A program made the translations under genes and the position numbers. The notes beneath the pieces are model-generated. The model made no database searches. It was given only the letters and a program-made list of their open reading frames with translations, and was not told where the DNA came from. DNA of 64,000 nt from Bacteroidales bacterium UBA4788 (lineage in GTDB: Bacteria > Bacteroidota > Bacteroidia > Bacteroidales > VadinHA17): positions 37,382 through 101,381 of the forward strand of contig DHGW01000092.1 in assembly GCA_002402965.1 (NCBI GenBank), given 5' to 3'. Each line of letters starts with the position of its first letter. Position 1 is the stretch's first letter. Below are positions 18,427 to 59,826 of this stretch, piece after piece.

Positions 18427-19854
18427 ATGAAAATCAGATATTCTGCCCTGGTACTCATTTTAGTGCTGGCCTTCATTCCGGCGCAGGCAACCGGACAGAC
18501 CGGTCACTCGATAACGGTAGCAGCAAAAGCAGGTCCTGAAACCAGTTTGAGACTTGCATATCACGTAGGCAATCAGCAATATGTCAAGGACAGCCTGACC
18601 ACGGATAAAGAAGGAAAGTGCCAGTTTTACGGCAGTGAGAAACTGCCTCAGGGAGTCTATATGATCGTCCTTCCGGATAACAGGTTCTTTGAGTTCCTTC
18701 TGGGGGAGGACCAGTATTTCGACATACAGTTTGACAAAAATGACCCGGCCGCAACCCTAACCTTCACCGGGTCGGATGAGAACAGCCGCTTCCTTGAGTA
18801 TCAGAGGAAATGGAAGTCTCTCCAGGAGGAGGCAATGAAGATCAGCAGCAGGCTTAACGGTTCCCTGCAGGGCAGCCCTGAAGCCGCAGCAATCAGGAAA
18901 GAACTCACGGATCAGGAGGCCAGGATGAAACAGTACCTCAGGGAGACAGCCGAGACAAACAGGGGAACCCTTCTCGGCGCCATCGCCAGGTCCGTGATAC
19001 CGGTGGACACCCCCGCCCCTGCAGTTCCTCCCGGCACCCACAATCCCGACTCTGTCGCACGCCTGCTCTCATACCTGTATTATAAGGATCATTTCTTTGA
19101 CAACATCGATTTTGCCGAATCCGGCCTCATACGCAGTCCCGTTCTCGGAGGCAGGCTCGACCAGTTCTTCAGACAGGTGGTGATACAGATGCCGGACTCA
19201 ATCATAATGGAGACAGACAGGCTGCTGGAGAGGAGCACCGTCAATGATGATGTCTTTCAGTATGTTGCAGTATGGCTCATGAACAAATATGGCTCCAGTG
19301 AGATAATGGGTCACGATGCCGTTGTGGTGCACATTGCCGACCGGGTTTACCTTGCCGGAAAAGCTCCCTGGGCTTCAGAGGAGTATCTCACCGACCTGAA
19401 GAACAGAATCGAACGACTGAGACCCAACCTTATAGGCGAAAAAGCTTCCGAGCTCCTCATGGGATCATTTGGCGGACAATATGTATCTCTCTATGACATT
19501 GATGCTGAGTTCACTATTGTCTACTTCTGGGAACCCGACTGCGGACACTGCAAGGAGGCTACTCCTATGCTGAAGGAATACTATGACAGGAATAAAGCCT
19601 CCGGCATTGAGGTCTTCGCGGTCTGCACCCAGAATGAGAAGGAAAAGTGGGAGAAATACATCGTTGACCACGGTCTGACCTGGATCAATGGCTGGGATCC
19701 GCAGAGGATGAGCAGGTTTGATTTCTATTACAATGTTGAATCCACGCCACTGATCTATATTCTAGACCGTGACAAGAAGATCATTGCCAAACGATTGGCT
19801 GTTGAGGATATAGCCTCATTCATTGAATCATACCGTAAGTTCCGGGCTCACTGA
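18427..19854 (+). CDS. TlpA/AhpC-like thioredoxin-fold thiol:disulfide oxidoreductase with long N-terminal domains
   Basis: 475 aa with a signal peptide. The C-terminal thioredoxin fold has the active site WEPDCGHCKE. Confidence 0.8.
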   Translation: MKIRYSALVLILVLAFIPAQATGQTGHSITVAAKAGPETSLRLAYHVGNQQYVKDSLTTDKEGKCQFYGSEKLPQGVYMIVLPDNRFFEFLLGEDQYFDIQFDKNDPAATLTFTGSDENSRFLEYQRKWKSLQEEAMKISSRLNGSLQGSPEAAAIRKELTDQEARMKQYLRETAETNRGTLLGAIARSVIPVDTPAPAVPPGTHNPDSVARLLSYLYYKDHFFDNIDFAESGLIRSPVLGGRLDQFFRQVVIQMPDSIIMETDRLLERSTVNDDVFQYVAVWLMNKYGSSEIMGHDAVVVHIADRVYLAGKAPWASEEYLTDLKNRIERLRPNLIGEKASELLMGSFGGQYVSLYDIDAEFTIVYFWEPDCGHCKEATPMLKEYYDRNKASGIEVFAVCTQNEKEKWEKYIVDHGLTWINGWDPQRMSRFDFYYNVESTPLIYILDRDKKIIAKRLAVEDIASFIESYRKFRAH

Positions 19855-40548: not shown

Positions 40549-40740
40549 ATGGAAACTAAAGACATTATCATTTATTCTGCAGTTATTGCGCTTGTAGGTT
40601 ACTCTCTTTATCGCAAATATGTAAAGAAACAGGGTGAAGGCAGCCCTAAAAAGTCAACCGGAATTTTTACACCCAGGGGTAACCTCAGGGATCAGCCTGA
40701 TGATTACGAGCCCTATGGCGGGAAGAAGAACGGAGAATAA
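40549..40740 (+). CDS. small single-TM protein, unknown function
   Basis: 63 aa with TM IIIYSAVIALVGYSLY followed by a charged tail. Its stop abuts the stop of the convergent ABC exporter with no gap. No homology recognised. Confidence 0.35.
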   Translation: METKDIIIYSAVIALVGYSLYRKYVKKQGEGSPKKSTGIFTPRGNLRDQPDDYEPYGGKKNGE

Positions 40741-42927
40741 TCAACTGCCCAGTTCCAGCTGGTCTCTGATGAGACTGTAGTAGATCCCCTTAAGAGAGGT
40801 GAGTTCGGCGTGGGTACCTGATTCGGTCACTTTCCCGCCTTCCAGTACCACTATCCTGTCAGCATGACGCACCGTGCTAAGCCTGTGCGCAACAATTACC
40901 ACTGTCCTGCCAGCCAGGAATCCTGCAAGTTTTTCCACAACAAGTCTTTCGCTTGAGGCATCGAGGGAGCTGGTGGCTTCATCGAGCAGCACCAGCGCGG
41001 GTTGCTTGTAAACCACTCTGGCAATCAGTATTCGCTGTCTCTGTCCCTGGCTCAGACCGTGTCCTCCCTGTCCGATACGGGTCTGAATTCCTGATGGCAG
41101 CGTATCGAGCAGAGGTTTCAGACAGGCTGTCTCTGCGGCCGTGGCTACTCTTCCCATGTCGGGATTATCTTCCCCGGGTGCAATATTCCCCAGGATTGTA
41201 TCGGGGAAGATATAACCCTCCTGCATCACGGTGCCGGTATTCCTTCTCAATGAGGAAATACTGATATCATCCAGTCTCAGGCCTCCCATCTCCACCGAGC
41301 CTTCAGCAGGATGATAGAAGCCCATCAGGATCTTCAGCAAGGTTGTCTTTCCCGATCCGCTCTCTCCCACCACGGCGGTGATTCTGCCGGCAGGTATACT
41401 CAGGTTAAGGTTTCGCAGCACCCATGGTGACCCCGGACCCTCATACCTGAAAGAAAGATTCCTGATTTCAATGTCAGCGCGCGCCGGCAAGGGAGCTCCG
41501 GCATCGGGTCCGCCAGACTCCTCCGGATCCATGGCATGCACTTCGGACAGGCGCTCCAGGCTGATCCGCGCATCCTGTGTCGCCCTCATGAAACTGACAA
41601 TCTGGGATACCGGACCGTTGAGCTGCCCGGTTATGAACTGCACCGCCAGCATCATGCCAAGGGTCATAGAACCGTTTATAACCAGCGTGGCTGAGATGAC
41701 AGTGATGATTATGTTAACTGACTCGTGAATCAGGGTTCCTCCTGCCGTCTGGAACTGAAGTATCCTGAGCCCTCTGACCCGGGTGGCATAGATCTCCTTC
41801 TGCAGCATCTCCCATTCCCTCCTGTTGGTAGCTTCGTTTCCCGCCAGCTTGATCTCCTGCATGCCGTTCACGATGTTTATCATTCTGTTCCCGGCTTCGG
41901 ACATCTGCATGAACCGGATGTTGTCAAGTCGCTCACGTGCAGGCATGAAGAGTGTAACATACAATATGTAAAATGTCGTCCCGGACAGAAACACCATCAG
42001 GACCGGGATGCTGTAGATGCCAAGCACCACCCCGAAAACTATGAAATTGAATAGCGAAAAGAGGATGGCAAGACTCGACGAGGTAAGGTAACTCTCTATC
42101 CTGCTGTTGTCATCAATCCTCTGTAATATGTCGCCGTTCAGCTTCGTATCGAAGTAGGCTATTGGTAATCCCATCAGCCTTGCAAGGAAATCGGAAACGA
42201 TCCGGATATTCAGCCTGGATCCCACATGCAGCAGAATCCAACCCCTGCTGAATTCAACTGTCAGACGGCCGGCAATGAGAGCCAGCTGTCCAGCCAGGAT
42301 CAGGTATATTAACCTTACATCACTGTTGGCAATACCCCTGTCAATGATTGCCTGTGTCATGAAGGGGAAGAGGAGCTGGATGGCGCTTGACAGTATCAGA
42401 CCAGCGATAAGAAGCACTATCTTCTTTCTGTAAGGTCTAAGGTAGGGTGCCAGGAACTCAAATCCTCCCCTGGAAGGCGGATCATCCTTAAGTTCCGCAA
42501 ATGACGGGCCCGGTTCAACAAGCAGAGCCATCCCCGCCGGTTCACCACCTGTCTCTCCTGATAGCCATCCCTGCTTGAACTCTTCATGGCTCATCCTGAG
42601 ACTGCCGATGGCCGGGTCACTAACCCATACTGCCCTTTCGTTCACCCTGTTTACAACGATGAAGTGGTTCTGCCGCCAGTGCACTATACATGGAAGCGGA
42701 GCACCCTCTATCAGCCTGCTGAACGGAATCCTGACTCCTGCCGCCCTGAAACCAATACTCTCTGCAGCTGACTTTAATCCCAGCATGGAGACTCCCTCAC
42801 GTGTTATCCATGACCTCTTTCTGATGGTCTCCAGGGAGAGACGCTTACCATGACTGCGTGCTACCATGCTCAGGCATGCCGGTCCGCAATCCATTGCATC
42901 ATATTGCCTCACAAAAGGGTAGTTCAT
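40741..42927 (-). CDS. peptidase-C39-domain ABC transporter (double-glycine leader peptide processing/export, ComA/LagD-like)
   Basis: 728 aa. The N-terminal C39 domain has the catalytic Cys in QYDAMDCGPACLSM, His in HWRQNHFIVV and Asp in VSDPA. It is followed by a 6-TM domain and an NBD with GESGSGKTT, LSQGQRQR and LVLLDEATSSLD. Confidence 0.92.
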   Translation of the reverse strand: MNYPFVRQYDAMDCGPACLSMVARSHGKRLSLETIRKRSWITREGVSMLGLKSAAESIGFRAAGVRIPFSRLIEGAPLPCIVHWRQNHFIVVNRVNERAVWVSDPAIGSLRMSHEEFKQGWLSGETGGEPAGMALLVEPGPSFAELKDDPPSRGGFEFLAPYLRPYRKKIVLLIAGLILSSAIQLLFPFMTQAIIDRGIANSDVRLIYLILAGQLALIAGRLTVEFSRGWILLHVGSRLNIRIVSDFLARLMGLPIAYFDTKLNGDILQRIDDNSRIESYLTSSSLAILFSLFNFIVFGVVLGIYSIPVLMVFLSGTTFYILYVTLFMPARERLDNIRFMQMSEAGNRMINIVNGMQEIKLAGNEATNRREWEMLQKEIYATRVRGLRILQFQTAGGTLIHESVNIIITVISATLVINGSMTLGMMLAVQFITGQLNGPVSQIVSFMRATQDARISLERLSEVHAMDPEESGGPDAGAPLPARADIEIRNLSFRYEGPGSPWVLRNLNLSIPAGRITAVVGESGSGKTTLLKILMGFYHPAEGSVEMGGLRLDDISISSLRRNTGTVMQEGYIFPDTILGNIAPGEDNPDMGRVATAAETACLKPLLDTLPSGIQTRIGQGGHGLSQGQRQRILIARVVYKQPALVLLDEATSSLDASSERLVVEKLAGFLAGRTVVIVAHRLSTVRHADRIVVLEGGKVTESGTHAELTSLKGIYYSLIRDQLELGS

Positions 42928-43043
42928 TGAACAGGCATGATTGGGAGTTTTACAGCATAAATATATCCATTATTTACCCACTTCGGGTGCAGCTACTGAA
43001 AATGTGCCGGGTAGCATTTTTCAGAAATCGATTGCGGAAATTG

Positions 43044-43051
43044 TATATTTG
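43044..43051 (+). promoter_or_regulatory. candidate -7 promoter box TATATTTG (TAnnTTTG) upstream of the sigma-factor gene
   Basis: Exact match to the Bacteroidota -7 consensus, 18 nt upstream of the TTG start at 43069. No well-spaced -33 TTG. Confidence 0.35.
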
Positions 43052-43068: not shown

Positions 43069-43635
43069 TTGGGATTATTCAGAAAGTATTCGGACACTGA
43101 CATCATAGATGGAATCAGGAAACAGGACAACAGGATTCTGAACTGGCTCTATGATTCCTGTTTTGAGATGATCCGTGATCACCTCAGAAAAAACAGCGGG
43201 TCGGATGATGACGTGCATGAAGTCCTCCAGGAGACTGTGGTGATATTGTACAAACAGGTTACCGGTGATGGGTTCAGTCTCACAACCGATCTGAAGGGAT
43301 ATGTCTACGGTGTGGCGCGCAATGTCTGGAATGCCCAATTGAGATACCGTTCGCGTCTGGTGGCTCTGGAATCCGATCCGGCAGATCATACGGCTGCGGA
43401 GGAGATGAACGATGCTATTCTTGAGAGGATTGTTGCCCGCTCCTTCGCTCTCCTCGGGGAAGACTGCCAGATGGTGCTAAACCTCTACGGCGAAGGTTCA
43501 TCCTATGAAGAGATAGCCCGAAGAATGGGATTCAGGAATGAGACCTACGCAAGAAGGAAAAAGTACCTCTGCAAGGAGGCTTTGATGGAAATCATCAAGA
43601 CTGATCCGGAATATCAGGATCTGGGTCCCTTATAG
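43069..43635 (+). CDS. sigma-70 family RNA polymerase sigma factor (ECF-like, regions 2 and 4 only)
   Basis: 188 aa. Region 2-like VHEVLQETVVILYKQV...YVYGVARNVWN and region 4 HTH CQMVLNLYGEGSSYEEIARRMGFRNETYARRKKYLCKEAL. There is no in-frame ATG near the N-terminus, so the TTG start at 43069 is assumed. Confidence 0.8.
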   Translation: MGLFRKYSDTDIIDGIRKQDNRILNWLYDSCFEMIRDHLRKNSGSDDDVHEVLQETVVILYKQVTGDGFSLTTDLKGYVYGVARNVWNAQLRYRSRLVALESDPADHTAAEEMNDAILERIVARSFALLGEDCQMVLNLYGEGSSYEEIARRMGFRNETYARRKKYLCKEALMEIIKTDPEYQDLGPL

Positions 43636-46600
43636 ACCAATCCCATAATAAGTGTTGCCACCAGCAGGAAGGCGAGCAGTCCTATGTACAGTTTCACCCT
43701 GTTAAACCAAAGTGGCGTGTCATCTCCGTATATCACCAGAGCCGACCAGTAGTATGGATGCGACCTGCCCTGGTAGGCAGTTCGGAGGTATTTCAACCGT
43801 GCGTTGCGCAGTGCGGAACTCTTTGTCTGGCCGCTTCTCATGTTCTTGTAAAAGGAGTGTATCACCTCTGATGCGGAGATGTCATCTACCGCCCACATCG
43901 ACATCACGGCCGAACGGCTTCCGGCATAGAGAAAGCCCCGTGCCAGGCTCAGTATTCCCTCTCCGCTCACAAGCATACCAGACCCGGTGTTGCAGGAGCT
44001 GAGCACAACCATCATTGCCTGAAGCGGGAGGCTGTAGACCTCGTAGGTATTGAGCATACCATCGTTGCTGCCGCCGCCGCCACCCGTAAAGAGCATCCTG
44101 GAGAAGGCAGGCCGGCTGTCGTCTACAAGTGTATGCATTGCCAGGTGAAGTATCTTGAAGTTCCCTGCTTCCCGCTTGAAGGCCTCTTCGCTTGCCCCTA
44201 CACCGATGTAGGCCTTCCCTCCGCACTGGTTGACTGCATCTTCGGCCTCCAGGATGGCATATGGCAGGTCACGGATCTCTCCCCTCAATGCAGGCCAGTC
44301 AATCAGCAGCGAATCATCAATCTGCACCCCTTCATAACTGGGTGCAAAGGCAACTAGCCTGTTGTTCAGACTCCTGCTCCTCTGAATGGTCTCCGACGAG
44401 AGAGTCACACTGTAGATATAAGAGAAACGGTATTTCTTAAGGGCAAAAGGAGCATCACGGTATAAAAGCCCGGGACTCCGGAACTCCTCCGTCACAAGGG
44501 CCTCGAACGGCAGGTATGAAAGGATGTTGTCAGGTGAGATCACTATCTTGTCACCGATGAGGTAAGGCTCAGCCGGCTCAATCAGAATCCGGTAAAGGCT
44601 GAGCGCCAGATCCATGTATTCATTGAATGGAGCACGTGAGCCACTTGTCGCCGGCGCAGTTGACAGCATGCTGCGGAATCGTTTCAGTGATGAGAAAAAG
44701 CTTGAATCGATGTCGCGGGTGATCACTTCACTCCTCCTGTGGTTGGCAACAAATATATACAGCCTTTCATCCGTCAGGACATAGCTTAAGAGGTTTGCCC
44801 TGCGGCCGATAACGCTGCTGACCTTGTTCAGAGGCGTCACCTCACTCCTGAATTTAAGGTTATAATAGGCCGGGTAATTATTCTCAAAGATTCGCACAAG
44901 AGAGTCACGCGATCTGAGCAGCCGGAAAGTCACTCCCTCCCAGGTGGCCAGTCTCTGAGTGTCAGGCACCGCTTTCAGCTTCTCCTTAAGCATAAGATCC
45001 TTGTAGAATCCAATCTCTCTTCTGATCTCTCCGTCAAGTTCTGTCAGCTCCCCGGGCAGGGAGAAGCGTGCGGCATTGAGCTCCCTCATGGAAGTAAGGA
45101 ACCCTGCCACCTTGCTCCTTTCTGAGAATTCAAAAAGGCCGGCAAGCGACTCGCGGTCATGGTCCGCCTCATATAGTTCTGCATAATTGTCAATGATGCC
45201 CGTATATATATCCCTGGAGTAGGAGCTGAAGCTTGTCCTGCTCTCCTCCTCGCTCATCTCCAGCCTGCGGCGGTCATACAGCGAGGTGATCCTGCTTCCG
45301 GCTGCAACAGCCTGCCTTAGGTAGTCCATATTTCTTTCTGACCGTGCAAGAGCGTTCAGGGCATCGTATCTCAATTCAAGAAGACGCAGGTCTTCTTCAG
45401 AGATGCCGTTGATCTCACCGTCATCACGGTTGCCCGGTTTGGCCGGCTCAGATGAAATGGCCATTCCCTCAGTGATAGCCAGCACCTCCTCATACCTGCC
45501 CGCATCTGTCAAAGCCTGGGCATACTTGACGGTTACAAATTTTCTCATCGAGACATCCCACGGATTTCTGCGCACATAACCGAGACACTCATCGTAAAGC
45601 GCAAGCGACCGGTCACTGTCACCAAGACTGTTGGTAATAAAGTCAGCGACCGAAACCAGCATAATGAAATATTCCCTGCTCTCCGGCCCGTAAGCGCTTC
45701 TCACCCTTTCCAGTCCTTCTTCCAGGACTTTTTCTCCTTCCTGTATCCTGCCGGCGTGAGCCAGAAAAGCTGAATAATTGATATGAAGCAGAAATTTGTC
45801 ATGAGTATTCTGCCCGTCCCTGATGGCCAGTCCCATCCTGAACTGCTCCTCTGCCTCCAACGGCTGATCAAGCCTGCGGTGCACCTGGGCCATGGTATTG
45901 TGCATCAGTATCCTTGAATCAACACTGGCGGCAGGATCCCTGTCATAGATTCTGAGTGCCTCCCTGCAGTAAACAAGTGATTTGTTGTACTCCAGCGTCC
46001 GATAGAGGCTCAGCCCTATCACGTGGTAGAGGTCAGCCTGTATCTTCGACGGAATCTCATCAGGGTATAGCCTTGAAATTTTCAGTCCTGACTCTGCCAG
46101 CTCAATTGCCTGGCCGGCGTCATTCAATTCAAGGCATATGCTGGCAAGATTGAGGTAGTTGGTTGCCAGCCCCGACGAGTCACTTCCTGAAACGGCCCTT
46201 TTGGCTTCCAGACCCCTGACTCCAAGCCCGTAGGCATGCGTATAATTCCCCAGCCTGTGGAGTGAGACAGCCATATTGCTGAGACCGTTGCCATACCTCC
46301 TGTCATAAAGAGAAAGCCTCTCCCGGAAGCTGGTGGAGACGCTGAAACAATCATAGGCACGATCGAACCTGTTCGACTGGTAATGCTGAACACCCACAAA
46401 ATAATAAGCATCCGAAAGCAGAAGGGTATCCATGATAAGTGTACCGTCAATGATTATTTCGATCTCCCCTGCCATCCTTTCCGCACCGGATGAATTTGCC
46501 CGGCGTTCAAGAAGAACGGCAAGTGAATCACTCAGCTCCCTGAGCCTCAATTCCCCCGAATCTTTCATTTCATTGCCCGCAGTGGCTTCTGAGCCAGATC

Positions 46601-46679
46601 CCCGGGCCAAACCAGGAGTTCCGCTGATAACCGCAAAAAACAGGTATGAAACAATGAGTATGTCTGCCCTCAGACTCAT
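43614..46679 (-). CDS. TPR-CHAT protein (caspase-fold CHAT peptidase domain), N-terminal signal/anchor and C-terminal TM
   Basis: 1021 aa. N-terminal hydrophobic ILIVSYLFFAVISGTPGLARG, then about 600 aa of TPR-like repeats. The C-terminal CHAT domain has His in FKILHLAMHTLVDD and Cys in MVVLSSCNTGSG. Terminal TM LYIGLLAFLLVATLIMGLVY. Confidence 0.85.
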   Translation of the reverse strand: MSLRADILIVSYLFFAVISGTPGLARGSGSEATAGNEMKDSGELRLRELSDSLAVLLERRANSSGAERMAGEIEIIIDGTLIMDTLLLSDAYYFVGVQHYQSNRFDRAYDCFSVSTSFRERLSLYDRRYGNGLSNMAVSLHRLGNYTHAYGLGVRGLEAKRAVSGSDSSGLATNYLNLASICLELNDAGQAIELAESGLKISRLYPDEIPSKIQADLYHVIGLSLYRTLEYNKSLVYCREALRIYDRDPAASVDSRILMHNTMAQVHRRLDQPLEAEEQFRMGLAIRDGQNTHDKFLLHINYSAFLAHAGRIQEGEKVLEEGLERVRSAYGPESREYFIMLVSVADFITNSLGDSDRSLALYDECLGYVRRNPWDVSMRKFVTVKYAQALTDAGRYEEVLAITEGMAISSEPAKPGNRDDGEINGISEEDLRLLELRYDALNALARSERNMDYLRQAVAAGSRITSLYDRRRLEMSEEESRTSFSSYSRDIYTGIIDNYAELYEADHDRESLAGLFEFSERSKVAGFLTSMRELNAARFSLPGELTELDGEIRREIGFYKDLMLKEKLKAVPDTQRLATWEGVTFRLLRSRDSLVRIFENNYPAYYNLKFRSEVTPLNKVSSVIGRRANLLSYVLTDERLYIFVANHRRSEVITRDIDSSFFSSLKRFRSMLSTAPATSGSRAPFNEYMDLALSLYRILIEPAEPYLIGDKIVISPDNILSYLPFEALVTEEFRSPGLLYRDAPFALKKYRFSYIYSVTLSSETIQRSRSLNNRLVAFAPSYEGVQIDDSLLIDWPALRGEIRDLPYAILEAEDAVNQCGGKAYIGVGASEEAFKREAGNFKILHLAMHTLVDDSRPAFSRMLFTGGGGGSNDGMLNTYEVYSLPLQAMMVVLSSCNTGSGMLVSGEGILSLARGFLYAGSRSAVMSMWAVDDISASEVIHSFYKNMRSGQTKSSALRNARLKYLRTAYQGRSHPYYWSALVIYGDDTPLWFNRVKLYIGLLAFLLVATLIMGLVYKGPRS

Positions 46680-46811
46680 CTGTATGGTTCTTCTTTCTTC
46701 CGCCGGTAAAAGTATAAAACAATCCGTTACAGTAACAGCAACTTTCCTGTCGTTATACAGCCCTGTTCTTCAGTATGTTGCATTTTTTTTGAAAAAAAGT
46801 CGATTTTTTCG

Positions 46812-46836
46812 TGTCACAAAAGGGCACTTTGTGACA
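46812..46836. promoter_or_regulatory. perfect 9-bp inverted repeat TGTCACAAA-N7-TTTGTGACA (candidate operator) upstream of the GG-peptide gene
   Basis: Read directly from the sequence: 46812-46820 TGTCACAAA and 46828-46836 TTTGTGACA. It lies 53 nt upstream of the peptide ATG in the divergent CHAT/peptide intergenic region. A T8-G-A7 palindrome sits at 46783-46798. Confidence 0.4.
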
Positions 46837-46888: not shown

Positions 46889-47026
46889 ATGAAAACCCTG
46901 AAAATTGAAAACTTCTCTGATTTTGTTCTTTCAAACGAGGAAATGATTAATGTACGCGGCGGAAACGGCGGCAAAAACGATTCGGTAACTGATCCAACCA
47001 GGCCTCCGGTGGTAATAGAGATCTGA
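46889..47026 (+). CDS. double-glycine (GG) leader peptide precursor, 45 aa
   Basis: Not in the ORF track because it is under 60 aa. Manual translation gives MKTLKIENFSDFVLSNEEMINVRGG/NGGKNDSVTDPTRPPVVIEI. The leader matches the Bacteroidota bacteriocin-type signal pattern MKxLKxxxxxxxLSxEEMxxxxGG. A C39 exporter lies 4 kb away. Confidence 0.75.
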   Translation: MKTLKIENFSDFVLSNEEMINVRGGNGGKNDSVTDPTRPPVVIEI

Positions 47027-47214: not shown

Positions 47215-47961
47215 ATGAAAACAAGGAATGTTAACAATGCCATTGAGGATTGGCTCGGCGGTCAGACAGACAAGGCCGGGGAGGAATGGCTCATCAGAGA
47301 GATGAAAAAAGACCCGGCGCTGGCAAGGGAAATCACTCTCAGGAGAAAAACAGATGAAATCCTGGCTGAAAGGCAGGTGATTGATCTAAGGAATATGCTC
47401 ACGGCCATAGAGAGGAAAAAACGCTCTGCAGGCACACTCCGCAGAACTATGGTGAAGAGTGCGAAGTATGCAGCTGCAGTTGCGCTTGTTGCACTCATCT
47501 CATCAGCTCTATACCTGGGACTGAGGCCGGGTGCATCACCTGATGAACTGTACTCTTCCTATTATTCCCGGTACGAATCACCTGGTGCCGTGAGGTCCGC
47601 CGTCAGTCCGGGCAACACATTGATGGAGAATGCCATCGCCTCCTACTCTGCAAAAGAGTATGAAAAGGCTATCATGTACCTTGAACAGGTGATAAACACC
47701 GGACAGGAAGGAATGGAATCGGTCTTCATGCACGGTATGGCCAACATGGAGGTGAAGAATTATCCGGTGGCGAGCAGATCATTCACCCGCGTCATCGAAC
47801 ACAATGACAACCTGTACCTCGAAGATGCCGAATGGTACCTGGGCCTGTGCTACATGATGACCGGCAACAAGGAAAAGGCAACGAAACAGTTTGCTGCAAT
47901 AGCATCCTCCGGCAGCAGGTACAGCAAACAGGCTGTCAGACTGGCACGAAGGATTAAATAA
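47215..47961 (+). CDS. single-pass membrane protein: N-terminal cytoplasmic anti-sigma-like helix region, TM, periplasmic TPR domain
   Basis: 248 aa from the ATG at 47215. IEDWLGGQTDKAGEEWLIREMKKDPALAREI resembles the N-terminus of Bacteroidota anti-sigma factors. TM AAAVALVALISSALYLGL. C-terminal TPR-like repeats include YEKAIMYLEQVI and AEWYLGLCYMMTGNKEKA. Confidence 0.65.
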   Translation: MKTRNVNNAIEDWLGGQTDKAGEEWLIREMKKDPALAREITLRRKTDEILAERQVIDLRNMLTAIERKKRSAGTLRRTMVKSAKYAAAVALVALISSALYLGLRPGASPDELYSSYYSRYESPGAVRSAVSPGNTLMENAIASYSAKEYEKAIMYLEQVINTGQEGMESVFMHGMANMEVKNYPVASRSFTRVIEHNDNLYLEDAEWYLGLCYMMTGNKEKATKQFAAIASSGSRYSKQAVRLARRIK

Positions 47962-47987: not shown

Positions 47988-48803
47988 ATGTTCGAGATTC
48001 TACGCAGTGCCTTCAAAGAGACGGGTATGACAGCAGCGACAGGCCATGAAAAACTGAACAAGATGATCAACAGACCAAATATACTTGCAGGCGTTTCTCA
48101 TGAGGTAAGAACTCAGATGAACTCAATCGTCGCCTTTTCATACCTGATGAACAATGAGAGGTTCAGTGACAACGAAAAGCGTGAGTTCTCAGAGCAGATA
48201 ATTTCATCATGCGAACAGCTGATCGGATTGTTTGAAAATTTCTTTGACACCGCCTCCCTTGAATCAGGGTCAACAAGGGAAAATCTCCGTGAGACAGACA
48301 TTACAAGACTTTTCGAGTCCCTTACCTCAGAATTCAGGGTTTTCATGAGGAAAAAGGGACATGATAATGTCGTTCTCATCCAGGAAGACAACCTCCCGGA
48401 CAAGCTGATGCTGAAGCTAGACGTGGCGAGGATAACAAGAATTATCAGCAATCTGTTCAGGGACGCACTCGACAGTACTTCTTCAGGGTTTATAAAAGTC
48501 GGGTGTACCTACAACGATGAGACAATAACATTTTACGTAAAAGATTCTGGCCAGGGTTTCCCAAGAAGTAGCAACCTGCTGCTTTCCGACAATCCTGAGA
48601 TCCAACATTCCGAAAGTCAGGATACCTATTCCGCTATGAATTTAATCCTGGCCAGAAATCTTATTCTCGCAATGGAGGGCAATATCAGGGTTGAGCCCAA
48701 CGATGCCGGAGGAACATCTGTATTCGTCTCTTTACCTGCCAGGGAGTGCTCTGGCTTGAAAATACTCACCGGTACCTCTTCAGAGAGTAAAATCGCAATC
48801 TGA
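47988..48803 (+). CDS. minimal soluble histidine-kinase core (HisKA + HATPase_c), no sensor domain, no TM
   Basis: 271 aa. H-box ILAGVSHEVRTQMNSIVAF about 35 aa from the N-terminus. N-box-like IISNLFRDALDS, G1 KDSGQGF and G2-like GGTSVFVSLP. Confidence 0.75.
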   Translation: MFEILRSAFKETGMTAATGHEKLNKMINRPNILAGVSHEVRTQMNSIVAFSYLMNNERFSDNEKREFSEQIISSCEQLIGLFENFFDTASLESGSTRENLRETDITRLFESLTSEFRVFMRKKGHDNVVLIQEDNLPDKLMLKLDVARITRIISNLFRDALDSTSSGFIKVGCTYNDETITFYVKDSGQGFPRSSNLLLSDNPEIQHSESQDTYSAMNLILARNLILAMEGNIRVEPNDAGGTSVFVSLPARECSGLKILTGTSSESKIAI

Positions 48804-59358: not shown

Positions 59359-59826
59359 ATGAAAAATATAAATGACCCGAAGCAGTTGCTCGTCAGCGCC
59401 ATCGAAAGCGGAACAGTTATAGACCATATCCCTGCAAGTACCCTCTTCAAGGTTATTAAAATACTCGGCCTCGACAAAATCAGGAACCAGATTACATTCG
59501 GCACCAACCTCGACAGCAAGACCGACGGCAAAAAAGCAATCATAAAGATCGCCGGAATTTTTTTCGAGGATGATGACATAAACAGGATCGCCCTCGTGGC
59601 GCCTAACGCAAAGCTTAACATCATCCGTGATTATAAGGTTATAGAGAAGCGTGTGGTGGAGGTTCCGGATACAATCACAGCCATCGCCAAGTGCATGAAT
59701 CCCAAATGCATAACAAACTTCGAGAAGGTGACAACCCGCTTCAGGGTCATCTCAAAGAAACCGGTGGCGCTAAAGTGCCAGTATTGCGAGAAAATTACTG
59801 ATCAGGAGAGGCTCGAGATCATCTGA
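59359..59826 (+). CDS. pyrI: aspartate carbamoyltransferase regulatory subunit
   Basis: 155 aa. GTVIDHIP and the C-terminal zinc site CxNPxC...CxYC (CMNPKC...CQYC). It starts 6 nt after pyrB. Confidence 0.93.
   Translation: MKNINDPKQLLVSAIESGTVIDHIPASTLFKVIKILGLDKIRNQITFGTNLDSKTDGKKAIIKIAGIFFEDDDINRIALVAPNAKLNIIRDYKVIEKRVVEVPDTITAIAKCMNPKCITNFEKVTTRFRVISKKPVALKCQYCEKITDQERLEII

What the first reader, a model, noticed from the sequence alone, without database searches (positions are those of the whole stretch)
43614..46679. TPR-CHAT caspase-fold protein predicted to be extracytoplasmic, convergently overlapping the sigma-factor gene
Seen in sequence: there is an N-terminal hydrophobic signal/anchor and a C-terminal TM helix followed by a short KGPRS tail, so the TPR array and the CHAT domain should lie outside the cytoplasm. 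The CHAT His (LHLAMH) and Cys (LSSCNTGSG) are intact. The 3' end overlaps the 3' end of the convergent sigma gene by 22 nt (43614-43635). Transcription of one gene therefore reads antisense into the other, which gives scope for mutual transcriptional interference.

Established knowledge: CHAT domains are caspase-like proteases (separase relatives, Csx29). Most characterised bacterial examples are cytoplasmic.

Inference: this may be a periplasmic or membrane-tethered regulatory protease acting on the neighbouring TM-TPR protein or on the exported peptide.
Basis: partly seen in the sequence, partly recalled or inferred. Interest (0 to 1): 0.6.

Follow-up and report, generated by a model that had tools for sequence, protein, structure and literature searches.

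The report
Periplasmic caspase-like protease beside sigma switch
This gene encodes a caspase-like (CHAT) protease that is anchored in the inner membrane and almost certainly faces the periplasm; across many Bacteroidia it stays next to an alternative sigma factor and that factor's membrane-bound inhibitor, which points to an untested protease-gated gene switch whose only studied relative is the fused DdvA protein of Myxococcus.

Summary
Every sequence observation holds. The ORF is 43614-46679(-) and encodes 1021 aa. It has an N-terminal signal-type segment, a TPR array, a CHAT domain, one C-terminal TM helix and a YKGPRS tail. Its 3' end overlaps the convergent sigma gene by 22 nt.

The catalytic dyad is H849/C896. 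It is invariant in homologues and aligns with the catalytic residues of DdvA and Craspase TPR-CHAT. The signal segment, the C-terminal TM helix and the K/R-rich tail are features of the whole family: 115 of 124 diverse full-length representatives have the TM helix plus a positive tail. A periplasmic TPR-CHAT is therefore well supported, though no experiment shows it.

The gene travels with an ECF-like sigma and a TM-TPR anti-sigma-like protein. This holds in 80/80 species of its lineage and through rearrangements in other families (22/29 class-wide loci). Presence and absence of the two genes also track each other.

The best structural match is DdvA, a Myxococcus anti-sigma with a fused periplasmic TPR-CHAT. 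This protein looks like a split DdvA.

Cleavage of the anti-sigma is inferred, with a candidate site at the conserved R127-S128. It is not shown.

The 3' overlap is conserved in 80/80 species, but its length is not unusual for this genome.

The parts
43614..46679 (-). TPR-CHAT gene, 1021 aa, the only CHAT gene in this genome
   Evidence: ORF. Pfam CHAT and TPR matches. One match in G000.
46605..46679 (-). Residues 1-25: signal-peptide-like N-terminus. R4 lies in the n-region, the h-region is I7-S19, and the c-region reads PGLA|RG.
   Evidence: Hydropathy scan. An h-region is present in 105/120 close homologues; the rest are shorter than the typical ~1020 aa (808-1038 aa) and so may have truncated or miscalled N-termini, which was not checked. 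It is present in 112/124 distant representatives. Some homologues carry a lipobox.
45450..46544 (-). Residues ~46-410: TPR array, a high-confidence helical-hairpin solenoid. It is the fastest-evolving part of the protein, with ~51% mean pairwise identity against 75% in the CHAT core.
   Evidence: Pfam TPR matches. AF2 block pLDDT mostly 75-94. Region-wise identity.
44820..45398 (-). Residues 428-620: long-helix midrib/scaffold between the TPR array and the CHAT domain
   Evidence: AF2 secondary structure.
43716..44807 (-). Residues 625-988: CHAT module (Pfam match 693-986; the catalytic residues H849 and C896 lie in its C-terminal part, after residue 801)
   Evidence: Pfam match 693-986. AF2 fragment model: pLDDT 81.9, pTM 0.80. 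Foldseek hits: Craspase TPR-CHAT 5e-13, DdvA 7e-12, separase 1e-8.
44133..44135 (-). Codon of the catalytic His, H849
   Evidence: Invariant. Aligns with DdvA H862. Codon position checked.
43992..43994 (-). Codon of the catalytic Cys, C896
   Evidence: Invariant. Aligns with the catalytic Cys of DdvA and of Scalindua TPR-CHAT. Codon position checked.
43635..43691 (-). Residues 997-1015: the single C-terminal TM helix. It starts only ~10 residues after the end of the CHAT domain.
   Evidence: Hydropathy scan. Conserved in 119/120 and 115/124 homologues.
43617..43634 (-). Residues 1016-1021: basic tail YKGPRS, inferred to be cytoplasmic. It is encoded entirely within the overlap with the sigma gene.
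   Evidence: Net charge is +2 in 112/120 orthologues. The tail is K/R-rich in all distant homologues inspected.
43614..43635 (.). 22-nt convergent 3' overlap of the CHAT and sigma genes
   Evidence: An overlap of 16-31 nt is kept in 80/80 species.
43069..43635 (+). ECF-like sigma-70 family factor, 188 aa
   Evidence: TIGR02937: 45.8 bits against a cut-off of 42.9. Weak Pfam sigma-2 and sigma-4 matches.
47215..47961 (+). TM-TPR anti-sigma-like protein, 248 aa. It has a ~80-aa cytoplasmic N-domain, one TM helix, a juxtamembrane linker with invariant R127-S128 (nt 47593-47598) and a periplasmic 3-TPR domain.
   Evidence: The gene lies directly downstream of sigma in at least 20 of 29 class-wide loci.
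46889..47026 (+). 45-codon GG-leader peptide gene, MKTLKIENFSDFVLSNEEMINVRGG|NGGKNDSVTDPTRPPVVIEI. It is divergent from the CHAT gene.
   Evidence: Sequence. Found in nearly all loci with that flank present; the leader and the C-terminal PT[RK]PP[VI]IIE[ILF] are conserved in the main clade.
40741..42927 (-). C39-peptidase ABC exporter (PCAT), divergent from the sigma gene
   Evidence: Pfam Peptidase_C39, ABC_membrane and ABC_tran. NCBIfam matches to bacteriocin-exporter models, all below their curated cut-offs, e.g. TIGR03796 at 423 bits against 853.
47988..48803 (+). Histidine-kinase core (HisKA + HATPase_c) with no hydrophobic (TM) segment and no other Pfam domain, downstream of the TM-TPR gene
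   Evidence: Syntenic in 80 species.

Best explanation
The gene encodes an inner-membrane-anchored cysteine protease of the CHAT (separase/Craspase) fold that faces the periplasm.

Proposed topology: an N-terminal Sec-type signal sequence exports the TPR array and the CHAT domain. A single C-terminal TM helix then holds the catalytic domain within about 10 residues of the outer face of the inner membrane. A 6-residue basic tail stays in the cytoplasm.

Proposed role: it is a dedicated partner of the adjacent ECF-like sigma factor and of the single-pass TM-TPR anti-sigma-like protein. It is in effect a split version of Myxococcus DdvA, where anti-sigma and periplasmic TPR-CHAT are one polypeptide.

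Most likely mechanism (inferred, not shown): the TPR array senses a periplasmic ligand, which in this lineage may be the co-encoded PCAT-exported peptide. This activates the His849/Cys896 dyad. The protease then cuts the juxtamembrane linker of the anti-sigma, with the conserved R127-S128 as candidate site. That cut opens the anti-sigma to the RseP-type site-2 protease and frees the sigma factor.

Confidence by step: about 0.8 for the periplasmic topology, about 0.75 for membership of the sigma/anti-sigma module, and about 0.3 for the specific cleavage of the anti-sigma.
For: Topology. There are only two hydrophobic segments, at 1-25 and 997-1015. The C-terminal TM helix plus a net-positive tail is found in 119/120 close homologues and 115/124 distant full-length representatives. 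An N-terminal h-region is found in 105/120 and 112/124. The 30 residues after the N-terminal h-region have zero or negative net charge in 106/120. Some homologues carry lipoprotein-type signal peptides, such as LLTLGC in L013. Their tails are strongly basic, for example RRKKTK and KRFKRRGK.

Protease. The Pfam CHAT match scores 177 bits. H849 and C896 are invariant across families. They align with the catalytic residues of DdvA (H862/C907) and of Craspase TPR-CHAT. The AF2 model of the CHAT module (pLDDT 81.9) matches Craspase TPR-CHAT, DdvA and separase. The full-length model's best PDB match is DdvA, 8rot/8rw5.

Partnership. The same module order is found in 11 + 80 species, including a clade where CHAT identity is only 34-37%. 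In other families the order is sigma then anti-sigma as an operon, with CHAT adjacent but differently arranged. Class-wide, 22 of 29 TM-TPR loci have a CHAT gene within about 7 kb. Nine of these lie tail-to-tail with the anti-sigma gene. Across 16 other families of the order, a full-length TM-TPR occurs only in genomes with a strong CHAT hit: 4 of 4 such genomes, against 0 of 9 genomes with no CHAT match.

Geometry and site. The CHAT domain ends about 10 residues before its own TM helix. The anti-sigma linker keeps an R-[GS] pair in about 32 of 41 class-wide sequences. Clan CD peptidases such as separase cut after Arg (PMC11506125). The genome has one RseP-type M50 protease.

Precedent. In DdvA a periplasmic TPR-CHAT gates an ECF sigma through RseP. 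Craspases cleave putative anti-sigma factors (PMC11506125).
Against: There is no experimental or dedicated-predictor evidence for the topology. SignalP and DeepTMHMM were not available.

No cleavage has been demonstrated, even for DdvA, where autoproteolysis is only proposed.

Seven of 29 sigma/TM-TPR loci have no CHAT gene within about 7-8 kb. In G028 the two genes lie on different contigs. The protease is therefore not obligatory for every sigma/anti-sigma pair of this type.

The N-terminal domain of the TM-TPR protein matches no anti-sigma model. Its anti-sigma role rests on gene order and topology only.

The conserved R-[GS] could be structural, for example a cap on the TPR domain.

Synteny within the close lineage partly reflects general genome collinearity, because housekeeping neighbours are conserved as well.

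An earlier in-scan check priced the 'protease cuts anti-sigma' step low.
Confidence: 0.5

Rival explanations
1. The TPR-CHAT protein is periplasmic and active but is an output or accessory of the module, not its trigger. It might process or degrade the exported GG-leader peptide, whose core contains PT[RK]|PP. It might instead act on other envelope proteins, while the anti-sigma's own periplasmic 3-TPR domain senses the signal.
For: The anti-sigma has its own peptide-binding-type TPR domain. Its profile hits consensus TPRs, PEX5, Hop and FKBP51, which bind C-terminal peptides. The peptide has a strongly conserved C-terminus. Seven of 29 sigma/TM-TPR loci have no CHAT gene nearby. In L014 (G028) a CHAT gene sits without a sigma/anti-sigma neighbour.
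Against: The peptide and the PCAT exporter are absent from the sigma/anti-sigma/CHAT triads of the other families examined. Peptide processing therefore cannot be the ancestral role. No ECF-type promoter was recognised upstream of the CHAT gene; only housekeeping-like TAnnTTT(G/A) boxes were seen. The CHAT domain sits tightly against the membrane, which suits a membrane-proximal substrate.
Confidence: 0.22
2. The protein is a periplasmic sensor or co-receptor that controls the anti-sigma without cutting it. The TPR-CHAT binds the anti-sigma's periplasmic domain, either shielding it from other proteases or relaying a conformational change. Any CHAT activity would be limited to autoprocessing.
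For: In the DdvA structure the dyad is in a resting, misaligned state and substrate cleavage has not been shown. Both partners carry TPR modules that suit protein-protein contacts.
Against: H849 and C896 are invariant, and 123 of 124 distant representatives keep the H...H/C motif. This argues for retained catalysis. The CHAT core is the most conserved region, at 75% mean identity.
Confidence: 0.15
3. The CHAT domain is cytoplasmic. The N-terminal hydrophobic stretch is not an export signal, and the protein is tail-anchored by its C-terminal helix with the 6-residue tail outside.
For: No dedicated predictor or experiment was available. In this protein the n-region is weakly charged (R4, D5). 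The 10 residues before the TM helix also carry +1 to +2.
Against: The N-terminal h-region is conserved family-wide. Relatives have strongly basic n-regions such as KKNRIR and RRKKRLR. Some homologues have lipoprotein-type signals. Tails after the TM helix are K/R-rich throughout. The closest solved structure is a periplasmic domain.
Confidence: 0.04
4. The conserved convergent 3' overlap is itself regulatory. Read-through from each gene produces antisense RNA or polymerase collisions, making sigma and CHAT expression mutually antagonistic.
For: An overlap of 16-31 nt is kept in 80/80 species, including a clade with 34-37% CHAT identity. In other families the CHAT gene is again tail-to-tail with the sigma/anti-sigma unit. 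In 9 class-wide loci the spacing runs from a 46-nt gap to a 39-nt overlap, and in L015 the overlap is 11 nt. No intrinsic terminator fits between the genes.
Against: Convergent overlaps are common in this compact genome. Of 358 convergent pairs, 49 overlap, 23 by 16 nt or more and 17 by 22 nt or more. The region forms no unusual RNA structure (z = 0.03). Conservation can be explained passively, by dual-coding constraint on two conserved tails. Other arrangements exist: divergent in L013 and co-directional in L108, L123, L136 and L144. No RNA data could be obtained.
Confidence: 0.15

Closest known systems
[quoted passage not shown]
   Same: Both have a periplasmic TPR + midrib + CHAT architecture with an intact His-Cys dyad. 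DdvA is the best full-length structural match (E 1.6e-10), and the CHAT module also matches (7e-12). The dyads align. Both are genetically coupled to an ECF-type sigma. In DdvA an RseP-type site-2 protease acts on the truncated anti-sigma, and this genome also has an RseP-type protease.
   Different: DdvA is a single polypeptide: an N-terminal cytoplasmic zinc-binding anti-sigma domain, then a TM helix, a long linker and the TPR-CHAT. Here the TPR-CHAT is a separate protein with a signal peptide and a C-terminal TM anchor. The anti-sigma-like function sits on a second single-pass protein that has its own small periplasmic TPR domain. DdvA-like fusions were reported only in Myxococcota and one Comamonas, whereas this family is very large in Bacteroidia. 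The DdvA regulon is a CBASS/CRISPR defence island. No defence genes were detected here.
Craspase: the type III-E Cas7-11/gRAMP complex with TPR-CHAT (Csx29), which cleaves Csx30 in an RpoE-linked circuit (PMC10028731; PDB 7y8t, 8eex, 8d9h)
   Same: It is the best structural match of the CHAT module (E 5e-13, TMq 0.55-0.57). The catalytic His and Cys align. The logic is the same: a TPR-CHAT protease upstream of an ECF-type sigma factor.
   Different: Craspase is cytoplasmic, activated by RNA and bound to Cas7-11. This protein has export and anchor signals. None of the module proteins scanned against Pfam is Cas-like, and the four scanned against PADLOC have no hit.
Separase (clan CD, family C50)
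   Same: Both have a helical-repeat N-terminal region plus a pseudo-caspase and an active caspase-like domain. Foldseek E-values are 1e-8 to 2e-9. Separase cuts after Arg, which fits the candidate R127-S128 site.
   Different: Separase is a eukaryotic soluble protein regulated by securin and phosphorylation. It has no membrane or sigma-factor context.
Regulated intramembrane proteolysis of anti-sigma factors, for example DegS/RseP acting on RseA-sigmaE
   Same: The proposed logic is the same: a periplasm-facing, membrane-anchored site-1 protease removes the anti-sigma's periplasmic domain, and an M50 site-2 protease then acts.
   Different: DegS is a PDZ-regulated serine protease of an unrelated fold. 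Here the candidate site-1 enzyme has a caspase fold and a TPR sensor. The analogy is functional and untested.

Membership tests
CHAT domain / clan CD caspase-hemoglobinase-fold peptidases (Pfam PF12770) | Match to the family HMM above the curated threshold | tested here: met
   PF12770: 177.3 bits against a cut-off of 24, residues 693-986, covering profile positions 5-289 of 289.
CHAT domain / clan CD caspase-hemoglobinase-fold peptidases (Pfam PF12770) | His-Cys catalytic dyad at the canonical strand ends | tested here: met
   H849 and C896 are invariant. They align with DdvA H862/C907 and with the Scalindua TPR-CHAT dyad, which has the expected 42-residue spacing.
CHAT domain / clan CD caspase-hemoglobinase-fold peptidases (Pfam PF12770) | Separase/Craspase-type fold | tested here: met
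   The AF2 fragment model (pLDDT 81.9) has as its top 37 PDB hits (E <= 0.001) TPR-CHAT, DdvA, separase and SAVED-CHAT chains plus four ciliary central-apparatus chains.
CHAT domain / clan CD caspase-hemoglobinase-fold peptidases (Pfam PF12770) | Peptidase activity | not testable with these tools
   This needs a biochemical assay comparing wild type with C896A.
DdvA-type transmembrane anti-sigma factor with periplasmic TPR-CHAT | TPR-CHAT located in the periplasm | tested here: inconclusive
   Sequence features and their conservation strongly favour it. No topology predictor or experiment was available.
DdvA-type transmembrane anti-sigma factor with periplasmic TPR-CHAT | N-terminal cytoplasmic (zinc-binding) anti-sigma domain in the same polypeptide, followed by the TM helix | tested here: not met
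   The N-terminus is a 25-residue signal-type segment. The only other TM helix is C-terminal. The anti-sigma-like N-domain lies on the separate 248-aa TM-TPR protein.
DdvA-type transmembrane anti-sigma factor with periplasmic TPR-CHAT | Cognate ECF sigma encoded alongside | tested here: met
   The sigma gene is adjacent in 80/80 lineage loci and in other families. TIGR02937 scores above its cut-off.
Craspase TPR-CHAT (Csx29) | Encoded with, and bound to, Cas7-11/gRAMP of a type III-E CRISPR locus | tested here: not met
   None of the seven flanking proteins scanned has a Cas domain in Pfam, and the four scanned against PADLOC have no match. The whole genome was not scanned for cas7-11.
Craspase TPR-CHAT (Csx29) | Soluble cytoplasmic protein | tested here: not met
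   A signal-type N-terminus and a C-terminal TM anchor are conserved across the family.
Site-1 proteases of anti-sigma RIP pathways (a functional class) | Signal-dependent cleavage of the anti-sigma's periplasmic part, followed by RseP cleavage | not testable with these tools
   Only indirect support is available: linkage, co-occurrence, membrane-proximal geometry, the conserved R-[GS] in the linker, and the presence of RseP.

The most novel reading that the evidence does not exclude
A very large family of stand-alone, membrane-anchored periplasmic caspase-fold proteases serves as the dedicated site-1 protease of a Bacteroidia-wide ECF sigma pathway. In this lineage the protease would be switched on when its TPR array, or that of the anti-sigma, binds the conserved C-terminus of a self-made, PCAT-exported linear peptide. 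That would be a peptide-autoinducer circuit read out by a caspase-like protease. No such signalling principle has been described in Gram-negative bacteria.
Probability: 0.15. Interest if true: 0.85.

Novelty: new variant of a known kind. Interest (0 to 1): 0.55.

Why it matters
CHAT proteases are known from eukaryotic separase and from cytoplasmic CRISPR-associated Craspase. Only one periplasmic case, DdvA, has been studied. Its trigger and substrate are unknown, and fusions of its type are rare.

This gene belongs to a very large uncharacterised family. A search of cluster representatives found 12,216 at E <= 1e-30. In this family the same TPR-CHAT module is a separate, C-terminally anchored periplasmic protein genetically tied to a sigma/anti-sigma pair.

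Because protease and anti-sigma are separate polypeptides, the question left open for DdvA becomes directly testable by co-expression and point mutants: does the CHAT domain cut the anti-sigma, and what switches it on?

In this lineage a co-encoded exported peptide offers a concrete candidate ligand. A positive result would define a new route of envelope signalling in a dominant environmental and gut phylum.

Tried and rejected
- A sequence-profile search of the PDB with the orthologue alignment found only generic TPR proteins and no CHAT structures. Fold comparison was needed to find those.
- A PADLOC scan of CHAT, sigma, TM-TPR and the kinase gave no hits, so the module is not a catalogued defence system.
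- NCBIfam has no specific model for the protein; only weak TPR matches appeared.
- The terminator scan and RNA folding across the overlap found nothing above background.
- I looked for a shared ECF-type promoter upstream of sigma, CHAT and the peptide gene by footprinting 35-53 orthologous intergenic regions. Only housekeeping-like TAnnTTT(G/A) boxes and one palindrome stood out. The regulon question stays open.
- The literature link between ECF54 and CHAT (PMC8999054) concerns Actinobacteria without anti-sigma factors, so it is not the same system.
- The profile of the TM-TPR N-domain found no solved anti-sigma domain.

Full report
**Observation**

The minus-strand ORF 43614-46679 encodes 1021 aa. 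The plus-strand ORF 43069-43635 encodes a 188-aa sigma-70-family protein. Their stop codons give a 22-nt convergent overlap at 43614-43635.

Pfam places a CHAT domain at residues 693-986 (E 6.3e-52). It places TPR repeats within residues 133-330.

A hydropathy scan finds only two hydrophobic segments. One is at residues 1-25. The other is L997-V1015, which is followed by the tail YKGPRS.

The sigma protein passes the NCBIfam ECF superfamily model. TIGR02937 scores 45.8 bits against a cut-off of 42.9.

One refinement: of the two histidines in LHLAMH, the catalytic one is the second, H849.

**Catalytic residues and fold**

H845, H849 and C896 are invariant in 55 orthologues with 51-85% identity. 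They are also invariant in a 46-sequence set that adds a clade whose CHAT proteins are 34-37% identical to the full-length query and three other families of the order.

A phmmer search against PDB sequences aligns H849 with H862 of DdvA. It aligns C896 with the DdvA catalytic Cys. It gives the same correspondence with the dyad of Scalindua TPR-CHAT, which has the expected 42-residue spacing. The DdvA dyad is H862/C907 according to PMC11506125, section 8.

The full-length AF2 model has mean pLDDT 72.7 and a high-confidence TPR part. Its best PDB matches are DdvA (8rot_A at 1.6e-10, and 8rw5), then human separase, then Csx29.

A second model of residues 560-990, built from a more diverse alignment, reaches pLDDT 81.9 and pTM 0.80. 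It matches Craspase TPR-CHAT (5e-13, TMq 0.55-0.57), DdvA (7e-12), separases (about 1e-8) and SAVED-CHAT.

The protein is a bona fide CHAT-fold protein with an intact dyad.

**Topology**

No topology predictor was available, so I relied on conservation.

- Among 120 close homologues, 119 keep the C-terminal TM helix. The tail has net charge +2 in 112 of them.
- An N-terminal h-region is detected in 105 of the 120. The 15 exceptions are shorter than the typical ~1020 aa and so may have truncated or miscalled starts, which I did not check.
- The 30 residues after the h-region have zero or negative net charge in 106 of 120.
- The divergent clade has strongly basic n-regions, such as MIKKNRIRW and MNRRKKRLRFF, and basic tails.
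- Homologues in other families carry lipoprotein-type signals, such as LLTLGC in L013. Their tails include RRKKTK and KRFKRRGK.

A library-wide HMMER search finds 12,216 cluster representatives at E <= 1e-30. Of the 124 full-length representatives among the best 150 hits:

- 115 have a C-terminal TM helix with a net-positive tail
- 112 have an N-terminal h-region
- 103 have both
- 123 keep the dyad motif
- at least four have canonical lipoboxes

The closest solved structure is an experimentally periplasmic domain.

The most parsimonious topology puts the N-terminal signal sequence in the membrane or cleaved off. The TPR array and CHAT domain lie in the periplasm. One C-terminal helix anchors the protein and a short basic tail sits in the cytoplasm. 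The CHAT domain ends only about 10 residues before the helix, so the catalytic lobe sits on the membrane surface.

**Genomic context**

The window comes from an uncultured Bacteroidales MAG of 3.1 Mb. This is its only CHAT gene.

The gene order is:

- PCAT exporter (-)
- sigma (+)
- CHAT (-)
- 45-codon GG-leader peptide (+)
- TM-TPR protein (+)
- kinase core with no TM segment or other recognised domain (+)

This order is identical in 11 genus relatives and in 80 species fetched from GTDB representatives. That set includes a clade with only 34-37% CHAT identity. Housekeeping neighbours are conserved too, so this synteny alone is weak evidence.

Stronger evidence comes from other families. In L013 and L015, sigma and TM-TPR form an overlapping sigma-then-anti-sigma operon. 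The CHAT gene is divergent in one locus and convergent in the other.

In a 401-genome sample of the phylum, 88 genomes (52 of 180 genera) have a match to the TM-TPR profile; some of these cover only its TPR part. In 29 loci from this sample:

- sigma lies directly upstream in at least 20
- a CHAT gene lies within 1.5 kb in 11, of which 9 are tail-to-tail with the anti-sigma gene
- a CHAT gene lies within about 7 kb in 11 more, giving 22 of 29 in total

Across the 16 other families sampled in the order, a full-length TM-TPR occurs only in four genomes (G027, G028, G031, G035). All four are among the five with strong CHAT hits. None of the nine genomes with no CHAT match has one.

The sigma/anti-sigma/CHAT triad is thus a rearrangement-robust, co-inherited unit. 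The peptide and the PCAT exporter were seen only in the window's lineage.

**The TM-TPR partner**

The TM-TPR protein has four parts:

- a cytoplasmic N-domain of about 80 aa whose pattern recalls class I anti-sigma domains; no HMM or PDB profile hit supports this
- one TM helix preceded by a K/R cluster
- a linker of about 30 residues
- a periplasmic 3-TPR domain; its profile matches consensus TPRs and the C-terminal-peptide binders PEX5, Hop and FKBP51

Within the otherwise variable linker, R127-S128 is invariant across three families. An R-[GS] pair is kept in about 32 of 41 class-wide sequences.

Clan CD peptidases have strict P1 specificity, and separase cuts after Arg. This makes R127-S128 a concrete candidate cleavage site. 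It is only a candidate.

The genome encodes one RseP-type M50 protease.

**Mechanism**

I propose a split-DdvA model.

1. The membrane-anchored periplasmic TPR-CHAT senses a ligand through its TPR array. This array is the fastest-evolving part of the protein, with about 51% identity against 75% in the CHAT core.
2. The dyad becomes active.
3. The protease cuts the anti-sigma's juxtamembrane linker.
4. RseP completes the release of the sigma factor.

What is shown is the architecture, the intact dyad, the fold, the linkage and the co-occurrence. The periplasmic location is well supported but not shown; it rests on conserved sequence features. The anti-sigma role, the cleavage, the site and the ligand are inferred.

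In this lineage the ligand may be the exported peptide. Its conserved C-terminus, PT[RK]PP[VI]IIE[ILF], suits a TPR groove.

Rivals:

- The CHAT protein is an output or a peptide-processing enzyme.
- It is a non-cleaving co-receptor.
- It is a cytoplasmic tail-anchored protein, which is unlikely.

An earlier in-scan check priced the cleavage step low. I have kept my confidence in that step at about 0.3.

**The 3' overlap**

A convergent sigma/CHAT overlap is present in 80 of 80 species. Its length is 22 nt in 61, 16 nt in 3, 19 nt in 6, 28 nt in 7 and 31 nt in 3.

Only the CHAT cytoplasmic tail is dual-coded, with the last seven sigma codons. In other families the CHAT gene is again tail-to-tail, but with the anti-sigma gene. 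Spacing there runs from a 46-nt gap to a 39-nt overlap in the nine class-wide loci, and in L015 the overlap is 11 nt.

A crude ORF census of this genome puts this in context. Of 358 convergent pairs, 49 overlap, 23 by 16 nt or more and 17 by 22 nt or more. No terminator-like site or unusual RNA structure lies at the junction.

The tail-to-tail habit is notable. A regulatory role for the overlap is unproven.

**Comparison and novelty**

The closest known system is DdvA/DdvS (PMC11506125). It shares the periplasmic TPR-CHAT and the ECF partner. It differs in being one polypeptide with an N-terminal zinc anti-sigma domain, in its narrow distribution and in its defence-island regulon.

Craspase shares the fold and the logic of a protease upstream of a sigma factor. 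It is cytoplasmic and bound to Cas.

The four library searches I ran returned no paper describing the Bacteroidia triad. PADLOC and NCBIfam have no model for it.

I class it as a new variant of a known kind. It is worth experimental follow-up mainly because the split architecture makes the open DdvA question testable.

Noticed in passing
window 46812-46836: The palindrome GTGTCACAAA-N7-TTTGTGACA lies upstream of the GG-peptide gene. Across 35 species its arms are conserved and its spacer is variable, as expected for the site of a dimeric DNA-binding protein. No such regulator is encoded in the module.
   Followed up: partly
window 47593-47598 (R127-S128 of the TM-TPR protein): An Arg followed by a small residue is invariant in the juxtamembrane linker of the anti-sigma-like protein. 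An R-[GS] pair is kept in about 32 of 41 class-wide homologues, within an otherwise variable stretch. This is a candidate protease site.
   Followed up: partly
window 46964-47026 (core of the GG peptide): The mature peptide has a variable N-half and a strongly conserved C-terminus. That C-terminus is PT[RK]PP[VI]IIE[ILF] in the main clade and a Pro-rich [LVR]P.PP..[KRQLV]I-type ending in the divergent clade. This looks like a TPR-type C-terminal ligand.
   Followed up: partly
window 40549-40740: A 63-aa ORF (METKDIIIYSAVIALVGYSLYRKY...) with a hydrophobic N-terminal stretch abuts the PCAT gene's 3' end in convergent orientation. It is detected at that position in most of the 80 loci (34-78% identity) and has no Pfam match.
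   Followed up: no
window 43043-43050, 42957-42969 and 46703-46723: Conserved TAnnTTT(G/A)-type boxes, resembling the Bacteroidetes housekeeping -7 motif, lie upstream of sigma, the PCAT gene and CHAT. No ECF-type -35/-10 pair was recognisable.
   Followed up: partly
G039 (same order), several contigs, e.g. C235:274-2091, C652:595-1788, C531:8088-8615: This 5.7-Mb genome has 17 CHAT-like matches. Eight of them contain in-frame stop codons (TAA, TAG or TGA). They could be pseudogenes, assembly errors or something else.
   Followed up: no
L015 6668-6678; L106, L109, L114: In other families the CHAT gene's 3' end overlaps the 3' end of the anti-sigma gene (not sigma) by 4-21 nt. The tail-to-tail arrangement is older than the window's own gene order.
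   Followed up: yes
window 19848-19854 and 59819-59826: Two further convergent ORF pairs in the window overlap at their 3' ends, by 7 and 8 nt. Genome-wide, about 14% of convergent ORF pairs overlap.
   Followed up: partly
L112 (G227:C6:189973-190692) and G011:C20:41897-42637: TM-TPR homologues with a single in-frame stop (TAA in one, TAG in the other). They may be decaying copies.
   Followed up: no
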